A stretch of DNA of 62,672 nt, the filler included, from Vannella sp. (taxonomy: Eukaryota): NCBI GenBank assembly GCA_023345925.1. It is 4 parts of 4 records of this genome, joined end to end, with 100 filler letters (N's around TTAATTAATTAA, not from the genome) between each part and the next. Parts side by side here need not be neighbours in the genome. Positions count along the whole stretch, not along the records: positions 1 to 22,666 come from JAJQQN010001035.1; 3 more parts are not named here. One strand, given 5' to 3'. Numbering within the stretch: the stretch's first letter is position 1; every line of letters starts with the position of its first letter. This document shows, one piece after another, positions 1,876 through 61,400 of this stretch. The notes under the pieces were generated by a model. That model did no database searches and was not told the DNA's origin. It saw only the letters and a program-made list of their open reading frames with translations. A program made the position numbers and the translations under genes.

Positions 1876-2210
1876 CTCCTGTAAATCCTTTTGTATCGGT
1901 CCTTTCTCGATTCTGAATAGCTCTCATGGACGTTTGGGTGCGTTCTGACCTCCCTGTGCTGGAAAAGGGAAGAAGTGAGAGGTCCTTTGGTGTTTTGGGT
2001 GGGGATTGTCGTTTTCTACTTCAACAGATCGACAGAAGACATCAGATTCATCTCTTTAGTGGATCAGAATGGTCAGTCGGATGCAAACAGACGGACAACC
2101 AAACGACAGATGAAGAGCCATGTGGAAGTTCTTATGATAGAGGCTTACCAACCTCAAACACCCGCTGTTGAACTCATTTTCTTTCGCCGTTTCGTTGGGA
2201 GCACGCGAAG

Positions 2211-4233
2211 ATGCCTTCTGGTGGAAAGCGGCACAAACCGTTGATCATGAAGGACCTGAACCTGTTTCTTACCAAGTTCTGTGATGACAGGGATCACCAC
2301 GACTACTCAAACTGCCTCCAATGGCACTCCAACATCTCCAAACAAATCCCCGTGGCGGACGTGAAGAAGAAGCACCTTCGGCGCATCCCCATTGAAGTGG
2401 TGGCAGGCCAAACACGCTTCCTGTATCTAGGAGAGAAGTGTCCTTACCCTGATAACTGCCCTGATGGGGCGCTCTGCTCTAAATGTCACAACGACCGCGA
2501 GTACATGTACCATCCGCTTGTTTACATGACTGTGCAGTGTAACAAGGGCGCTTTATGTCGCAATCGCTTCTGCGCTTTCTACCACACTAAACTAGAGCAG
2601 GAGGAGCAAGATAGCCGTCGCGATGCCATCTTAAAGGAGATCGCCAATGGCCGACCTGCCACGAAGCCTCCTTCTCGTCCCCCTGTGGAGGAGAGCCCTC
2701 TCGTTGCAGCTACACAGAACCTCAAAATATCTATCAAAAAGCCTCTGAAATCAGCTGCTCCTGCGGCTCCTCCTACGCCTACTTCTGCTTCGGGTTCCGT
2801 CCTCACGCCTCAACCGAAGAAGAGCCCGATTGCTCCTGTGTCCGTCAGTCCTCGACAGAGCGAGACAAAGGGATCAGAGGTTGTCTATACGAACCAGCAC
2901 GTTGGAGAGATCGACTTGGCAGCTAACCCAAGAGCTCCGCCCTCCAGGGTCAGTGAAGAGCGTGCAGGAGCGTCAGCTAGGTACTCCAATCACATATCCC
3001 CCTCTTTAGAGATCCAGAGGGACCGTCCGGTGTCTAGCAGACTCATAGGCAACACATTCGCGGGGGTTTTCACTGAGTTCGGTGTCCGCTGGCCCGTTCT
3101 GGTGCGAGAACTGGACACAAGCATGCTTGGGAACATCCCTGAGCACTACGAGATGGTCACTAAGCCCATCAGTCACCCCAATTTTGTCTGTTTGAGGAGC
3201 GCCCAGCTTGTGGGCGACCGCACCTACCTCGTGATGGACCATCCCGGCATTCCCCTTCATCAGTTCCTTCAGTCTCCACCTTCCAACCTCAAGGACATCT
3301 TGCCTTCCTTGGCAACTCAGTTGTGCCACGCTGTGGCGCACTTGCATCAAACGGGGCACCCTTTCTTGTTAGATATTGCTGTAGGACTGCCCTCGCCACT
3401 TCCAAGTCCTCTCATACTCACTCGTAGTGTAGCCAGATAATATTTTCATAGATTCAAGCATCCCGGGGGAGTGCAGACTCGTCTTGGGTGATGTAGACCG
3501 AAGTCTCACTCAAAGTCACAAAGAAAGAGAATTCTCCTTTGGCCGAGCGGCTCCTGAGCCCTCTCAGTATCATTATCACACTCCTAGATGGCCTTTACCC
3601 CAGGAGAGTCGCTCCGTATCCGTTTCAAAAGAGTCTTTTGGACTCTCTGATATGTGGAGACTTGGCTCTTTGCTCATATTCCTTTTTACTTCGGGACAAG
3701 TGATTCCTGATGAGGCCCCGGCGGCTCTGGACAAGCGAATGTTTGGGGATGGCAACATGAATTGGTATTGTTTGTGTTTCCTTCTTACCCTGCAAAGAGA
3801 AGAGCATCGCTTGCCTCCCAATCGTTTGCTTGATCATCCCACATTCTGGGCTTCCAATCATGCTCGAGTGAGTCTCTTCTGGAGTAACGTGTTTGAACAA
3901 TACGTTCCTTTCAATCTCATGGCCAGTGTTACTTCGTCTGCCAGAGAACTATTCTTCCCCTATTCTGCTTGGACAGAGCCTTTGGGGTGCTATCATGCCT
4001 CTGGCGGAGACCTATTCCCATTAATCAAAGCGATTTGTCAAAAGGAACCGAACGGAAGAGACGAAGCCGTTGAGGTTCTTGCCCGTTATTGCCAACAAAC
4101 TCAAAGCGACCCGCTCTACTTTGTCCAATCCTCCTTCCCGTGTCTCCTCTCAAAGGTGTGGGAAATTCTTTTCTACCAATTGTATTCGATCGAGTTCGAT
4201 AAGAAGTCCATGGAGACCATCTTCAGAGTCTAA
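2211..4233 (+). CDS. Tandem CCCH (Unkempt/plant RR-TZF-like) zinc finger + pseudokinase + KEN-like (IRE1/RNase L-type) protein
   Basis: CDDRDHHDYSNCLQWH...CPYPDNCPDGALCSKCH..EYMYHPLVYMTVQCNKGALCRNRFCAFYH; kinase-fold motifs HPNFV, LVMDH, LDIA|PDNIFI across intron 3381-3432; C-terminal LLDHPTFW ... DPLYFVQSSFPCLL parallels IRE1 VLKHPFFW ... FVCYFTSRFPHLL. Confidence 0.7.
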
Positions 4234-4305: not shown

Positions 4306-6593
4306 TTATTGAAGCTGCTCTAATTGTCGGTGGCTGCGGTCGGAAAGGCAGCGGCAAAGGTGAAAATAGAAAGCCGCCACCAAAGACGGATAAAGTCGAA
4401 TGAAGTCGGCTCGCAGGAAGTTGCCAGTGATAAGAAGCGCCCGCACTTCTCCCTCGCTGGCTACTAATGAGCAGCTTGCCGCTTCGTTGAGGAGGAAGCA
4501 GGTGTCCCCGTGGACTTCCAAGGGTGGGGAATGGGTGAGAAAGTAGATCGTCTCCCCCAAAGGGAGTTTTCGTTCCAACCGACAAGAGCCTTCCAGGACA
4601 ACAGCTATGAAGGAATAGATCTTGCCTTGCTCAAAGATCTTATCTCCTTTGGCATACGTCATTAATGTGGAAGCTTTGGACACTAATGGGCTGGTCAGAG
4701 TGTCCCACATGTCTTGACTGGGAAGAGGTAATGCTGATAAGGTCGCTGAGACACTTCCGAGATCAATTTGAGTTCTGTTCTCAGCTAATGCCTTTACCAA
4801 GCCACGAAACAAGCTTGCTTCAGCGGTGGTGTTGAACTTAAGCTGGGAAAAGTGAAAGATGAGTTTCAGATTTCAGACCTTCTTTCCTGTCTCTCACCTG
4901 ATAGTGCTTCAGTTTGCCAACGAATTGAAGAGAAACGTTATTTTCTTCTTGTTGAATGATTGTGAGGTCGGAGAGTGCGAACTTTGTGCGAGAACTGGAC
5001 CAATACATGTCACTTGGAGTTAACGCTATTTGCTTCTTCTCCGAGCTGCCAATAGTCACCTCTCCCTCTAAAAGATGATCAGTAAGACGTAATTACTGAT
5101 CAAACGTACCAAAGAGAATAACAGAGGCTGCCAGAGAGGGGAACGCATCAAAAAGAGACCGGGGAAGAAGAGAGCGTTGGACAGTGCCTGTAACGGTGTG
5201 GGTAGAGATAAAGCGGAGATCAAATAGTGAGGAATTGATCGAATTGACTTTTGCATGTGCACAGAGGCGGTGAGCGACAGTGGAGAGGAATCGGAAGGCT
5301 AAACGGGGAAGGAGAGGGAAGATTTGCAGTAAGAATGGCACATTCAGCTGCATGAGAGTAACAGGAGTCTTAGCAATGATCTGGAAGCTACTTTTGAACG
5401 TGCTTTGAAAGATGCTGGCCTCTGCCAGAAGGAAACCGGGCTCTTTCAGTTCTCTCAAATGCACGATTCTCTCTTCTTCCGACCGAACAATGCGCTCTAC
5501 AGCCACCACACCCGAGTGCGTGAGAAAGGCAACAGGTTCTTCTTGATCCTGCTTCACAATAATGGCTCCTTCAGCAAAGGAACGAGGCGCGCTCAGCGTC
5601 AAAAGCACATTCCAGTCCTCCGCCGTCAGCTGCGCATCAAACCACTCCGGTATCTGCGCTCTGGAGCAGAGAAGATTCTTCAAAGCCATATACTGCCTGA
5701 AGCTACTCGTTGCCCCTCTCCCGTCAGAAAACACTTTCCCAGGCAACGCAGAACGCAGGCAGAACGCACCAATCGGTAAAGTCCTCGCTTTGCTTGAACT
5801 CTGGGAACCACTCGTTCTGTAGAAGTCGAATGGCTTCATTCTGAGCAGCATCAAAGCTCCCTTTGGGCAAGAAGCGATCTGGTTTGGCTGTTTCACTGGC
5901 TTTGAAGATGTTCTCGAGTGGCAGTTTGAACTTCTCTGTAAGGTTCACTTCCTGAGGAGCAGAGGAGCTCACAAATCGGTCGAAAAGGCTTCGGCCAAGG
6001 TCAAAGGACTCTGCGAGGGAGAGGAAGGAATGTGTGCCTCGGAAGTACTCCACTTCCTTCCAAAAGTCTAACAGCTCTTCACAGTAGTGCTTAGCAAGGT
6101 AGCTACGGAAGCCAGACAGGAGGATGGGCTCTTTGAGGATCTCTTCAAGTCCTCGCGACCGTTTCGCACGGACAAGCTCCACGCTGAGAGAGAGCGCTCG
6201 CTTTCCTTCCACACGAGTGAGGAGAACAGGTCGACGACGGCTCTGAGTGGGAGACGGCTGCTCATTCACCACATTGCGAGATCGCGGGACCAACGGAGCT
6301 TGCCTCAGCAATAGTTCCGCGTTGCAGCGCTCCGCATCCTCTTCCATCAACTGATCATGTTCATGGGACAGCATAGCATGAGTCTCACTGTTTACGCCCG
6401 CACCAGGCACGAGCAACGGCCCCAGAACGGTCCGAACTTGGCGTAGCAAGTCCTTCGACGCTCTTGCTGACTGAAGGAGCGTCCGCACTAACTCCGCATG
6501 AGACACTTCAAGCAGGACACCTTCTACCTCAACAAAGCTCTCCTCGTCCACTGCAGCGGGAAGAACGCCTCCTCGAAACCCGTCCGCCTCCAT
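4306..6593 (-). CDS. RGS domain + two cyclic-nucleotide-binding domains separated by a GRAM/PH-like segment
   Basis: RGS: ILKEPILLSGFRSYLAKHYCEELLDFWKEVEYFR...FVSSSAPQEVNL...FDAAQNEAIRLLQNEWFPEF; cNBD1 RSFAEGAIIVKQDQ...GFLLAEASIF; cNBD2 TYAKGDKIFEQG...HGDTCFLL; about 3 short introns join ORFs 5724-6593, 5093-5896, 4838-5059 and 4306-4812. Confidence 0.75.
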
Positions 6594-6678
6594 CTTCTCA
6601 AAATGGCGGGAAAATGACTATTTAGAGACTATGAGGCGTTCGGAGGATCGGCTTGTGGTGTGAGGGACTTTGTTAGGT

Positions 6679-45744: not shown

Positions 45745-45844
45745 NNNNNNNNNNNNNNNNNNNNNNNNNNNNNNNNNNNNNNNNNNNNTTAATTAATTAA
45801 NNNNNNNNNNNNNNNNNNNNNNNNNNNNNNNNNNNNNNNNNNNN
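45745..45844. other. Artificial contig spacer
   Basis: N44-TTAATTAATTAA-N44. Confidence 0.98.
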
Positions 45845-55779: not shown

Positions 55780-55879
55780 NNNNNNNNNNNNNNNNNNNNN
55801 NNNNNNNNNNNNNNNNNNNNNNNTTAATTAATTAANNNNNNNNNNNNNNNNNNNNNNNNNNNNNNNNNNNNNNNNNNNN
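55780..55879. other. Artificial contig spacer
   Basis: N44-TTAATTAATTAA-N44. Confidence 0.98.
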
Positions 55880-58394
55880 TGATGTTCTTCTTCCGAGCCT
55901 TCTCGGACAGTGTACGAGTGGAGTTTGGTAGATCTTCAATATCTTCTACCTTCTTCGTCTCAGTCAGTACTGCCTCGGACAAGTCAATAGTAGATGGAGG
56001 CGGCGATTGGTGCTGTGCATAACCAAGGGTAGGAACTACAACTTTGGGGACAAACCGATTGGAGGTTGGAATCAACATTTTGTCCACCTCAGTTGCCTTC
56101 TTTCCTGACTTTGCCCTTCCCTGGACAGTCTGCCATCCTACTGCATCAGCAACATCAGTTTGACTTGCCTCTATGTTGATCTTCAACGGCGAAACCGTTG
56201 TGGATGAATGAGACAGTCGCGGAAGTGCTTTTGCCCGGTGAGCGTGTGGAGGGATGACCGCCTTGGAAATCTTCAAAGAGGAATAGAAGCTGGCCTGTTT
56301 GATTTTCTTATCATCCAGAGCCGGCCATGCTCGCTTTGGGGCTCCTGAATGAGGGCATCCATTGCAAACAAAAGCTGAGGCCGAAGCAGAAGCTTTCTGA
56401 ACCTCCTTTCGGGAAGTATCTGCCTTGTCAAAGAGGAATGACTGAAGTTGGAGCAAAACGCTGTGGACGGAGTATGCGGTCGTCCATCCAGAATAAGGCT
56501 TATCTAACTGCTCCTTCGAGGACCATTCGAACTCCTCCAACATATCCAAACAGATCCAAGCCCGGAACACATTCTCGTGCTTGAGATACGAGCAGAAGAA
56601 GAGTTTCGGGGGCTGGAATGGATAAGAGTGAGGGAATTGCATGATAAAGTGGAACACAGTGCCTTGGTATGGGCTGAGTTCCGGACCTTTCATGTTGCAA
56701 TGCCATTCGAACAAGTCACTTTCCACTGGCTCAGCCGTAACAGAAGGCAGCGGATTCCTCTTAATCTCTTCAAGATCAGCTATCAGTCGACGAATACCTC
56801 TTGCTAGTCTCCCTTGGTCTTCTTTCTTTTCCTCTGCCAATGGCTCTGGCACTGACACAGGAGCTTGAATAGGAAGTGCGACCATTTTCGCAGGAGGTTG
56901 AGTCGTAGGTGGAAGCAAGCGGCTCTTCTTCTTGGCCTTGACCGGTTCACTTTGTGTGGGAATGGGAACTGTGGAAGCTGGTGTGACTACTGAGAGGGGG
57001 GCCTTTGGAGTCTGAGGTCCGATTGTCTTTCCTGTTAAGGCCTGGAGCATGTCGCGCTGACCTTCAGTGAGATAAGAAGCTGCAGCTGAGCTGCTGATTC
57101 CACTGGCCCTTTGCTGGTAATGACTTCGAGAAAGGCTGTAAAGATGCTTCACTCCGGTCGAGCGGAAGGTCGCTTCATCTTTCACTAGCGTAAGAGAGTC
57201 CTCAACATCGGTAATCAGAGAAGCGGTAAAGCTGGAAGCAGCTCGATGGGAGCCAGACGCCTTGAGACTATCGAGTTCCGTTTGTAGCGTTGACCGGGCT
57301 TCTTTCAAGTTTCCGCTCTCTCCCAATCGAATGGCTTCTTTCAAAACCTCTGCCACTCGCACTCGGTTCCGCTGCTCATCAATCTCTGTGAATTCTGGCG
57401 TGTCCTTCTCGTCTTTGCAATCTTCAAGACCAGGCCGGGAGACGTTCAAGTTGCAGGACATTTCTTGTACTCCTGCATCAGCTTCAAAAGTCAATTTGAT
57501 GTCAAAGTACACTTCCGAAGCGTTGGCAGGTGCCAGCAGTGTTGGCACTTGGAAAGAGAATGGAATATTGCGCTTCTCTCCTCCACTGAGGTTCCCCAGT
57601 TGGAGCTTGTAGGTTGCGCCTTTTTGTGTTTGCTTCAGATCAGACATGATCTTGATGATTTGGGCCCCTCTCATGGAAGGTTTCAAGTAGAGCGTTGCGT
57701 TCCGGTAAGCCACTGATTTGACTCCTCCCAAACACTCTGCGAAGGACATGGCAATTGTACGCTCGTCTTTGATATAGTAGTACATTCCTCGACCAGTGTC
57801 GCTGATTGCGCGTAGAAACGCTGCATTGTGAGAGCTGCCAAAGCCAAAGGTGGATACTGTCGTGCCTTTCTGCAGCTGTTTAGCCAACGCACTCTCAATT
57901 TCAAACACTGAAGTGATTCCAAAGTTGGCATCTCCATCAGTCATCAGCATCACAGATTGAACGTTTGTTTTGGTAGACTTGGCGATTTCCTGCACTCCCA
58001 GGAACAATCCGGCACTGAGATTCGTGCAGCCGTTGATTTCGATAGCTGCAACAGTGTTCTTTGCCCGCTCCTTGTTAGCGGACGACATCTTCAGTAGCGG
58101 TAAAACAGTTTGAGCGCTACTCCCAAACGTGACGACGCAGAGTTCGTCTCCCTCTTGAAGCTGAGACACGATGAAATTGAGCGTGGACTTGGCGAGGGCG
58201 AGACGCTCTCCCACCATGCTGACACTTATGTCTATCACTGCTACCAATGAAAGGGGGACGGAGGTTTCGCTGGTCAAGGCAGGGACGATCAAATTGACGG
58301 ATCCAAACAACGGAGAAGGCTTTGCGTCGAACGCCACGGTCGAGCTCTCGCTCGTTGCCGTCAACCGAGCCGGACAGCGTTGGCCAGCTGTCAT
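55880..58394 (-). CDS. vWA domain + ubiquitin-conjugating (E2/UBC) domain protein (truncated by gap)
   Basis: MIDAS VIDISVSM, GCTNLSAGL, MLMTDG, TFGFGSSH; UBC RRLIADLEEI..DLFEWHCNMKGPELSPYQGTVFHFIMQFPHSYPFQPP..HENV..ICLDML..SGWTTAYSVHSVLLQLQSFL. Confidence 0.88.
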
Positions 58395-58499
58395 TCTCTC
58401 TTCCAAGAGAATAAGTGAACCCAGAAGCAGCAAAGAACGAAGACATTCCCAGTATCTGGAATGATTCTGGATTCATTATGACGCAATAATGAAGTTGGC

Positions 58500-61400
58500 C
58501 TAACTCCTTTCTGGTTTGGTTCTGGACTTTGATGAAGGGATTAAGGTGTGATTGGAGCGCGCAGTAGAGGCGTTGGATGTGAAGGAGTTCTGTAAGAGCT
58601 GGCCTTGTCTGAGAATGTCGAGGGTGGAGGAATATCCTCGGCTGCCAAGTTGGCCAGAATTGCCGGGTGGCAGAACAGACCATCCTGCATCATCATCTGA
58701 TGGTGACATGTCATGAGCCTGGCGGTAGGCTACCCATTACTTGTCAGGTCCACCGAGCAGAGCCACTTTGAAGGTGGAGGTACTTACAGACTCCCCACCC
58801 TTTCTGGTCAAAGGAATATCGGAAAGGAACAACTTGTGCCATAGAAAGAGTCTCAGAGTCACCACTTGATTCCATGGAGGGGCTGGAAGTGATCAGAAAG
58901 GAATTCAGCCCACAAAAGGAGCAAAGTACCTGATAATGCGATCGAGAAGAGGAGAAATCGTTCCCATGTTATGAGCAAAAGTTGTGCGATGGATCTCTCC
59001 CCAGCGCCAAGAAGAAGGGGGAGCAGAGGCTACACGGCGGGTATGCGAGAGGTGGTGTGATAACCAACGCACCGCATTAATGAAGCTGTCAACCATGAGT
59101 CGATCTGCTCCACCATGTTTCTTCATCTGTTCCAATTGTGAGCAACCAAATGCAATAAAAAGATGGGCGACAGACCCAATTGGATGAGGCCGTCCGCATC
59201 TCTTTGGTTATCTTCGAAGTTGACTTTGCCTCTGAAGAAGAAGCGTCCCACATTGTGAATAGAGCTGTTGGAGAAGTTACAAGCATGCCCGTGCTGGTAT
59301 TAATAACTGGATGGAATCCCCTTTGGAGAGTTCTAAGTAAGCTAGGCTCTAAAGGGGTTCAGAAAGGACTTACTTTCCAAGGCAAATATCTCTCAATGAG
59401 CCGCAGATTCCGTTAAAGAGTTCAATAAGGGCAGTTTGGTAAACAGCATGATAGATAGCTGCACCTGCAGAATTTTTTGCCACGTGGGAGTCCCATCTCC
59501 GGAATTCTTCCAACGCAGCGCAAAGCAGTTTCTCATCTTCTGAGACAGGAGCTCGAGGACAAATACTCTTTGAAATGATCTTTCGGAGGAAGAAGCGCCG
59601 ATGGAACTCTTCAGCAGCCAATGACTTGGTATCCTGTTGGAAAGTAATAGCATCTTCAAGGGTGATCTTGGTGCCGTTATTGATGAAGGATTCGATCAAT
59701 TGGGTAAGGCGTAGAGCGCGATAACCCTGGGACCAAGTGTTGGCAGTTGGATAGAACTCGTTGGATAGTTTGTGGTTACAAGAGAGGATGAAGCCCTCTG
59801 GTGGATTGCGTACACGCGGCATCTCCTTCCATGTCATCATCCTGACCCAAGAATCCTCATTAAGCCAGCCTCTGGCAGGCCGAGTCCCAGCTTTTGAGTG
59901 AGAACGAACCGGTATTCGCCCAGTCACAAAGTGAGCGATGTTCCCTTTTGCATCTGCATAGATAAAGCTAAAGGGCTTGAGCTTATGAACCATTCAGATT
60001 GGTTACTGCTTACTTCAGAGAGGGAGAAACACAGAATCGAGCTGCCTCTTCAAACTCATCGATATTCTCCGCCAACATGGCATTGGACACAGCACCAACA
60101 ATCGAGTAGGTGAGAGAAGAGATCTTCATCACGCCAGGATGCAGAGAGCTACTCATCAACGCCAATCCATGCGTGTAAGGAGATGAATCCTCACCAGCCT
60201 TAGGGACAATCCCATTCTCAGTCACATTCAATCCCAGCACATCGCTGATGATAACGCCATAACGAGTCTTCCGATCAGTTAGTACCCGGTTAAGATATAA
60301 AGAGGAGCATTACGTGGATGATGTCGATTGTCTCAGTCTCTCCTCCTTTAAGAGTGATAGTCTCTTGCACTACCAGCGCATCTTCCTCCCTGTCTAAATG
60401 CTGATATCGCAACTCCCCCGAAGGACCGCGCTCACGAAGGAAGCGAACCAAAAAGGTGTCATCTGTGTCAGGGTTCGCCAAAGTAATTCTGAGGCGAAAG
60501 TCAGAAGTGAGACTTTTGGTAAAACGCACCTACGCGCTACTTAGATGAGGAGACCTGAAGTTGATAAAGAATGGGAGAAGAAGAGTGCTAACACCAGAGA
60601 AGCGGCGCTCTTTCTCAGTTCCACCAGAGATCTTGAGATTCCAGCGATACCAAGTGGAAGGATGAATGGCAGGCAAATGAGGGTCGCCGAGAAGTAAAGG
60701 ATTCCCTGTTTTTGTGTGATTTCCGGAGATGGCTTTGGACAAATAGGTCAGAGTTAGTGGATTTGATGCCTTTTGTTCATGGAACGTACCAAAGGCATTG
60801 CTTCCACCAAAGGTACCAACGGGAATATCTAAGCGCTCTTCCATCTCCTGAGGAAAGTGGACACGAGTGGGTTCATCCTTGAAATTCACTTGCGTATCTT
60901 CCATAGAACAGGTTGGATCTAGAATCGAAGAAGCATCCCCACGGGATGGCATGTTAACGGGGAATGCATTACTGTACTCTGGTAGCAAATCTCCCGCTAT
61001 TTCTCCAAAAGCTAAACGACAACACTCTGCGGTGAGCACAACTTTCAAACAGTCCTTTGCAACACATTACAGTTCAGGAGAAGGCTCATTGACACCTCAC
61101 GAGACCATCCTTTGGACATGGTAAAGCTATTGAACCGATTCCAGCACATTGTATCCTCCACTGTGAAGGGTTCCAAAGCAGATAGACCCAAGAGAGTGAA
61201 TTCTACAGGCATTTTGAATGCCTTGGCCTTCAATTCAGTCTATTTGTCTATTTGTAAGGTTCTTTGACTTACCTTATCGTTCATAAATGCATTGATTCCA
61301 CTCAGATAGCTTTCTACCAGTGCACGAACGTCCACAACAGACTTCCCGGACTCTTGGGGGAACTCTGGAAACTGTTTAAAGGTGAAAGAGTCCGCATTCA

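What the first reader, a model, noticed from the sequence alone, without database searches (positions are those of the whole stretch)
2211..4233. RNase L/IRE1-like protein with an RNA-binding CCCH zinc-finger N-terminus instead of a lumenal or ankyrin sensor
Seen: N-terminal tandem CCCH fingers (~2260-2600) with Unkempt/plant RR-TZF spacing (E..YHP..Y.T..C..G..C..RFCAFYH) and a Pro/Ser linker. A kinase fold follows with VAIK->VLVR, HRDLKPxN->LLDIAPDN (spliced across 3381-3432) and DFG->DVD. A helical tail (3826-4233) matches KEN-domain landmarks HPxFW, W..., Y...xxLIKAI and YF.S.FP.LL. There is no TM segment. Known: kinase+KEN occurs in IRE1 (ER sensor) and RNase L (ankyrin 2-5A sensor with a pseudokinase). 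Inference: a cytosolic effector in which direct RNA binding drives dimerisation, an architecture I do not recognise as described. Caveat: the KEN catalytic RNxxxH appears as ICQKEP, so it may be a pseudo-nuclease or a dominant-negative regulator.
Basis: partly seen in the sequence, partly recalled or inferred. Interest (0 to 1): 0.82.

Follow-up and report, generated by a model that had tools for sequence, protein, structure and literature searches.

The report
RNA-binding IRE1 relative lacking nuclease residues
This protist gene joins three Unkempt-type zinc fingers, which likely bind RNA, to a membrane-free copy of the stress enzyme IRE1 whose RNA-cutting residues are missing here and in all its close relatives, so it likely works as an RNA-binding scaffold rather than as a nuclease.

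Summary
The gene is real: two exons (2211-3380, 3433-4233; 656 aa) encode a CHCH+CCCH+CCCH finger triplet of Unkempt/RR-TZF type, a Pro/Ser linker, an IRE1-type kinase fold and a KEN domain, with no membrane segment. Four relatives carry fingers, kinase and KEN in one reading frame; seven more break or carry an insert at the same intron site. A family-only profile ranks IRE1 first in the PDB (E 4e-23, through the KEN). The nuclease motif R-N-x3-H is absent in 12 of 12 family KENs and present in 14 of 15 other KENs; no substitute histidine is conserved. A family-specific C-terminal helix is predicted to dimerise one relative (0.55 against 0.00 for controls). The same layout with an intact nuclease motif exists in the amoebozoan Soliformovum, and without any KEN in another protist; kinship is unresolved. 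Soluble IRE-like kinases and 'CCCH in some' KEN proteins are in print; this family was not found in ten literature searches. Splicing is not read-confirmed. New variant of a known kind.

The parts
2211..3380 (+). Exon 1 (390 codons): zinc-finger triplet, linker, kinase N-lobe up to the catalytic loop
   Evidence: ORF; start matches relatives P0004, P0011, P0155
2280..2327 (+). Finger 1, C-x5-H-x4-C-x3-H (CHCH), followed by a basic RR-type stretch
   Evidence: CHCH plus arginine-rich region is the RR-TZF hallmark (PMC4468379 passages)
2439..2489 (+). Finger 2, C-x5-C-x5-C-x3-H
   Evidence: Unkempt 5elk_A match covers aa 74-127
2538..2585 (+). Finger 3, C-x5-C-x4-C-x3-H, 16 residues after finger 2
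   Evidence: same spacing as the second RR-TZF finger
2646..2996 (+). Low-complexity Pro/Ser/Ala/Thr linker, poorly conserved, probably disordered
   Evidence: 16% identity to P0004 against 57% for the fingers
2997..3849 (+). IRE1-type kinase fold (interrupted by the intron); beta3 Lys replaced by Arg, Gly loop lost, catalytic-loop Asp and Asn and the DFG-position Asp kept
3381..3432 (+). 52-nt phase-0 GT-AG intron in the catalytic loop (inferred from relatives, not from reads)
3433..4233 (+). Exon 2 (266 codons plus stop): kinase C-lobe and KEN-type domain
3850..4230 (+). KEN (HEPN-type) domain without the nuclease motif
4036..4053 (+). Position of the R-N-x3-H nuclease motif; reads C-Q-K-E-P-N
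4144..4224 (+). Long C-terminal amphipathic helix typical of the family; predicted dimer element in relative P0004

Best explanation
The gene encodes a membrane-free IRE1 relative whose KEN domain lacks the nuclease residues, and which likely acts as a dimeric RNA-binding scaffold rather than an RNase. Shown: the domain order, the loss of R/N/H across the family, the lack of a TM segment, and the strongest conservation in the fingers. Inferred: the finger triplet binds short single-stranded mRNA motifs as Unkempt and RR-TZF proteins do; the linker is a flexible tether; the kinase-KEN module is kept for its fold, and its KEN helix 1 and long C-terminal helix pair two copies, which brings two finger triplets onto RNA and offers a surface for silencing or decay partners. 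Kept Mg-binding positions may let nucleotide binding tune the module. The likely output is sequence-guided control of mRNA translation or stability through partners.
For: Full motif in 0 of 12 family KENs (R kept in 1, N in 1, H in 2) against 14 of 15 other KENs; no KEN column has more than 4 His in 12. PMC3710099 (passages) says the H and R are needed for KEN activity and that motif-less HEPN domains probably act non-catalytically. The fold is still conserved: F149, W180, I201, W243 of exon 2 invariant in 12 of 12; family profile ranks 16 IRE1 sequences first among 2048 PDB matches; a family-only model (pLDDT 68.6) has IRE1 in all top 10 Foldseek rows and only IRE1 aligns through the tail. 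Fingers 57% identical to P0004, kinase 32%, KEN 21%. Predicted homodimer of P0004 296-697: score 0.55, best of 3 controls 0.00, runs agree in at least 92% of contacts, pLDDT at least 77; mark reached by 21 of 30 microbial pairs and 0 of 23 single chains, in eukaryotes 17 of 29 and 0 of 30. Interface positions 571 and 674 are invariant and 694/695 hydrophobic in 11 of 11. P0032/P0157 carry the same triplet and an IRE1-like kinase with no KEN, so the nuclease can be dropped from this layout.
Against: No RNA binding, partner, location or expression was measured. The dimer was predicted for a relative, not the window protein; IRE1 dimers are solved, so the pass may come from memory (only 1 of 7 eukaryotic pairs without an older solved relative passed). 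The model is weakest (pLDDT 51-61) over exon-2 residues 161-210, which hold the former catalytic helix; no Foldseek row reaches E 0.001 and the IRE1 Z of 10.6 (rmsd 5.0, 188 aligned) ties with plain kinases. The family is not uniformly kinase-dead: P0007 keeps Lys, HRDLKPNN and the Asp. The window has the longest branch in the family (2.25), so it may be under relaxed selection.
Confidence: 0.55

Rival explanations
1. Regulatory partner of an active IRE-like nuclease: the dead module pairs with an active paralog, either blocking it or steering it to RNAs chosen by the fingers.
For: IRE1 and RNase L form a composite active site across a dimer (PMC8104961 passages); amoebae can carry several soluble IRE kinases (PMC1420674 passages); the predicted interface uses KEN helix 1, as IRE1's does.
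Against: No paralog could be sought, as no genome is held; the predicted interface relies on a C-terminal helix that ordinary IRE1 tails lack.
Confidence: 0.17
2. RNA-regulated protein kinase: RNA bound by the fingers controls a kinase output, the KEN is only a dimer module, and the window copy has decayed further than its relatives.
For: Beta3 Lys is kept in P0002, P0004, P0007, P0016 and the catalytic Asp in 7 of 12 sequences checked, the window included; Asn and the DFG-position Asp are kept in all aligned full-length members.
Against: Gly loop lost in all aligned members; catalytic Asp replaced in 5 of 12; the window lacks the Lys.
Confidence: 0.13
3. One reading: an RNA-activated cytosolic RNase, working here through an unusual active site.
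For: KEN fold kept; the same layout with an intact motif exists in Soliformovum P0026; His survives at the catalytic position in 2 of 12 members.
Against: R, N and H all replaced in the window, often by hydrophobic residues in relatives; no conserved His or replacement pair in the KEN.
Confidence: 0.07
4. Not one functional gene: the intron is not spliced, or the locus is decaying, giving a fingers-plus-half-kinase product and an orphan ORF.
For: No reads confirm the splice; database entries of this gene are the unspliced 409-aa form; long branch.
Against: Both exons are open; four relatives are contiguous across the site and seven stop or carry an insert exactly there, which is what a shared intron read by a gene caller that ignores introns looks like.
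Confidence: 0.05

Closest known systems
IRE1 (Ire1p/ERN1; Dictyostelium IreA)
   Same: Kinase plus KEN module; best PDB match by profile and by fold.
   Different: No signal peptide, lumenal domain or TM segment; N-terminal finger triplet; nuclease motif gone; degenerate kinase; long C-terminal helix.
Dictyostelium soluble IRE-family kinases
   Same: Non-membrane IRE kinases with RNase domains in an amoeba: six of seven members (PMC1420674 passages).
   Different: The passages seen describe no CCCH fingers and no loss of the nuclease motif; their sequences were not compared here.
RNase L
   Same: Soluble; sensor-like N-terminus, degenerate kinase, KEN (PMC10400998 section 6).
   Different: Fingers instead of ankyrin repeats; RNase L is an active nuclease; it is not among the best 60 PDB matches of the family profile.
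Unkempt and plant RR-TZF proteins
   Same: CHCH + RR region + tandem CCCH with matching spacing, followed by a low-complexity region. [quoted passage not shown]
   Different: One triplet, finger 2 shortened to C-x5; no RING or ankyrin; fused to kinase-KEN.
KEN proteins with CCCH fingers noted before
   Same: [quoted passage not shown] P0079 (Pristionchus) has CCCH behind the KEN.
   Different: The table names no protein or finger position; P0079 has C-terminal fingers and an intact motif.
Soliformovum irregulare EP01119 P010197 (P0026; unannotated, Amoebozoa: Variosea)
   Same: N-terminal Unkempt-like fingers, kinase, KEN, helical tail.
   Different: Two finger clusters, conventional kinase motifs, intact R-N-x3-H; orthology neither shown nor rejected.

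Membership tests
IRE1/RNase L kinase-KEN superfamily | Kinase fold directly followed by a KEN domain | tested here: met
IRE1 (UPR sensor) | Signal peptide, lumenal sensor and one TM helix | tested here: not met
   hydropathy maxima 0.81 and 1.17; relatives start at the same basic N-terminus
IRE1 (UPR sensor) | Active kinase motifs (Gly loop, Lys, HRD, DFG) | tested here: not met
   Lys to Arg, Gly loop lost, both Asp kept
Active KEN/HEPN RNase | R-N-x3-H (Rx4-6H) motif | tested here: not met
   window C-Q-K-E-P-N; 0 of 12 family members
Active KEN/HEPN RNase | Measured RNA cleavage | not testable with these tools
   needs an assay
IRE1/RNase L | Back-to-back dimer through kinase N-lobe and KEN | tested here: inconclusive
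   P0004 dimer predicted, but confident contacts are KEN helix 1 and the C-terminal helix only
RNase L | N-terminal ankyrin repeats binding 2-5A | tested here: not met
   no ankyrin hit in exon 1, P0002 or P0004
Unkempt/RR-TZF finger module | CHCH + RR region + tandem CCCH with conserved spacing | tested here: met
   finger 2 has C-x5 in place of C-x7-8
Unkempt/RR-TZF finger module | Sequence-specific ssRNA binding | not testable with these tools
   inferred from homology only
Unkempt (full protein) | Two finger clusters and a C-terminal RING | tested here: not met
   one triplet, no RING hit

The most novel reading that the evidence does not exclude
Protists have built a third branch of the IRE1/RNase L design, with an RNA-reading finger triplet as the input module, and it exists in three states: nuclease intact (Soliformovum P0026, a candidate sequence-guided soluble RNase that needs neither ER stress nor 2-5A), nuclease dead but fold and dimer kept (this family, a conserved pseudo-KEN family), and KEN lost (P0032). 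The dead form would be a dedicated mRNA-targeting or inhibitory subunit for active IRE-like nucleases.
Probability: 0.25. Interest if true: 0.8.

Novelty: new variant of a known kind. Interest (0 to 1): 0.58.

Why it matters
KEN domains are treated as nearly always active (95% keep the motif in the 2013 survey). A family that keeps the IRE1 module across many protist loci after losing the nuclease would show what the module does apart from cutting RNA. The search also turned up a directly testable candidate for a zinc-finger-guided soluble RNase (P0026), a natural counterpart of RNase L with its own RNA reader.

Tried and rejected
Single-sequence fold of exon 2: pLDDT 37.4, not used. Whole-genome search for paralogs: no genome held. 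Read evidence for the splice and for expression was not obtained, so both stay open. The Foldseek-independent wide fold search was not obtained; the VIA result is only a second look at Foldseek's matches. Orthology of P0026: tree unresolved, AU p 0.498, tail-helix score 5.9 against 5.6 bits for an ordinary IRE1 and its fingers below 12 bits on the family profile; left open. Host taxon: eS7 and vault searches did not place it; none of the family proteins looked up carries an organism name. Atlas search with P0026 gave only generic kinase clusters. Rfam: 0 matches in the window. JAK2/ABL hits for single sequences were rejected as generic kinase likeness once the profile ranked IRE1 first. Weak Pfam hits to Tir, EB, Nop52 and JAB1 are below cut-off and treated as noise. 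The Unkempt structure paper was not held. The supplement held for PMC3710099 is a 4,325-character front page without protein lists and that of PMC10400998 could not be read; either could list this architecture.

Full report
Gene model. The window shows a 422-codon open frame at 2172-3440 and a 266-codon frame at 3433-4233. Of 14 in-frame GT-AG joins, 3381-3432 (52 nt, phase 0) gives 656 aa and aligns without a gap to P0002, P0004 and P0158 at the kinase catalytic loop. Relatives point to a shared intron: P0002, P0004, P0007 and P0158 run straight through the site, P0010, P0013, P0014, P0023, P0039 and P0156 leave the kinase there, and P0016 has a 19-residue insert there. No reads were laid, so the splice is inferred. 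The gene lies on the first contig-like segment of the window (N spacers begin at 22667).

Relatives. Word-based searches found 2 of 4395 candidates with exon 1, 2 of 3537 with the kinase-KEN part of P0002 and 13 of 7990 with a 27-sequence alignment. The HMMER search of 1.84 billion representatives gave 4650 hits at E 0.001, of which 150 were listed; I read 29 of these and scanned 52 against Pfam. Four relatives hold at least the last finger, the kinase and the KEN in one frame (P0002, P0004, P0007, P0016). The six members long enough for a tree form one group at 100/99. None carries an organism name. The host is a gene-dense, intron-bearing eukaryote; an amoeba is my guess, not a result.

Fingers. 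The N-terminus is C-x5-H-x4-C-x3-H, a basic stretch, C-x5-C-x5-C-x3-H, 16 residues, C-x5-C-x4-C-x3-H. CHCH with an arginine-rich region and the second-finger spacing define plant RR-TZF proteins (PMC4468379, passages); the best PDB match is Unkempt 5elk_A, E 3.7e-5 (that this entry is fingers 4-6 is recalled). This is the best-conserved part: 57% identity to P0004 against 16% (linker), 32% (kinase) and 21% (KEN).

Kinase. The window has Arg for the beta3 Lys, no Gly loop, LLD for HRD and DVD for DFG. The family is mixed: the catalytic Asp is kept in 7 of 12 sequences checked, and P0007 keeps Lys, HRDLKPNN and the Asp. The window fits the usual sequence definition of a pseudokinase; the family as a whole may not.

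KEN. The window's tail alone has no Pfam hit, but 4 of 12 family members pass the Ribonuc_2-5A cut-off, 3 hit below it and 5 do not hit. A profile built from the family only ranks 16 IRE1 sequences first among 2048 PDB matches (E 4.4e-23 to 6e-20), aligned from the N-lobe to the last KEN helix. A KEN-only family profile ranks 16 KEN-bearing outsiders above all other outsiders among 158 fetched proteins. The Atlas places exon 2 near a cluster with 98% Ribonuc_2-5A at rank 3. A model from 12 family sequences (pLDDT 68.6, pTM 0.65) has IRE1 in the top 10 Foldseek rows, none at E 0.001, and Z 10.6, rmsd 5.0 over 188 residues to IRE1 691-955, while plain kinases of similar Z stop near residue 150.

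The nuclease site is gone. At the R-N-x3-H position the window reads C-Q-K-E-P-N. The whole motif is present in 0 of 12 family members (R in 1, N in 1, H in 2) and in 14 of 15 other KEN proteins aligned with them. No column has more than 4 His in 12. The H and R are required for KEN activity, and 95% of KENs keep the motif (PMC3710099, passages). Loss across a divergent family with the hydrophobic core intact is what a pseudo-enzyme looks like.

Dimer. Two copies of P0004 296-697 scored 0.55 against 0.00 for the best of 3 controls; runs agree in at least 92% of contacts, pLDDT at least 77. The mark was reached by 21 of 30 microbial pairs and 0 of 23 single chains; in eukaryotes by 17 of 29 pairs, 0 of 30 single chains, and only 1 of 7 pairs without an older solved relative, so memory of IRE1 may contribute. 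The confident contacts join KEN helix 1 (567-581) to the C-terminal helix (674-697), whose hydrophobic pattern is kept in the family and the window. This supports, and does not show, a dimer, and it was not run on the window protein.

Mechanism. [quoted passage not shown] Every functional step is inferred. Rivals: partner of an active IRE-like nuclease (0.17), RNA-regulated kinase (0.13), active RNase (0.07), unspliced or decaying locus (0.05).

Related layouts. P0026 from Soliformovum irregulare (Amoebozoa) has Unkempt-like fingers, a conventional kinase and a KEN with the motif intact. P0032/P0157 have the triplet and an IRE1-like kinase but end just after it. Common origin with the family is neither shown nor rejected.

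Prior art. Seen as passages or named sections: PMC3710099 (Table 1, 'CCCH in some'; section 16), PMC1420674 (six non-membrane IRE kinases in Dictyostelium), PMC10400998 (section 6: RNase L arose by adding ankyrins to a kinase-RNase), PMC6025073, PMC8104961. Ten full-text searches returned no description of an N-terminal Unkempt-type finger IRE1 relative or of a motif-less KEN family; most of their hits were seen as listings only, the library lacks most subscription papers, and two supplements could not be seen. Verdict: real, conserved, a new variant of a known kind; interest 0.58.

Noticed in passing
window 22667-22766, 45745-45844, 55780-55879: Three identical-sized spacers (44 N, 12 bases, 44 N) join four separate pieces; the vault and Piwi ORFs are cut at the first one. 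Neighbourhood across spacers means nothing.
   Followed up: yes
P0026 (Soliformovum irregulare, EukProt): Two Unkempt-like finger clusters, conventional kinase and KEN with intact motif: candidate zinc-finger-guided soluble RNase.
   Followed up: partly
P0032, P0157 (EukProt transcripts): Finger triplet plus IRE1-like kinase with no KEN, in ORFs marked complete.
   Followed up: partly
P0007, P0013, P0014, P0016, P0023, P0039, linker about 50 residues after finger 3: A conserved short D-x-x-S-x-N-x-F-P-x-L motif in an otherwise variable linker; absent from the window, P0002 and P0004. Possible partner-binding motif.
   Followed up: no
P0096, P0114, P0079, P0129: Other kinase-KEN fusions among the hits: F-box, CARD, C-terminal CCCH, and a doubled KEN.
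   Followed up: no
window 4306-6617 (-): Convergent neighbour with an RGS domain and two cNMP-binding domains in three open frames.
   Followed up: no
window 55827-58472 (-): VWA domain fused to a ubiquitin-conjugating enzyme domain.
   Followed up: no
window 59373-61066 (-): Penicillin amidase family gene in several frames in a eukaryote.
   Followed up: no
P0058, P0092, P0100: Closest finger triplets outside the family, attached to helical regions with no Pfam family.
   Followed up: no
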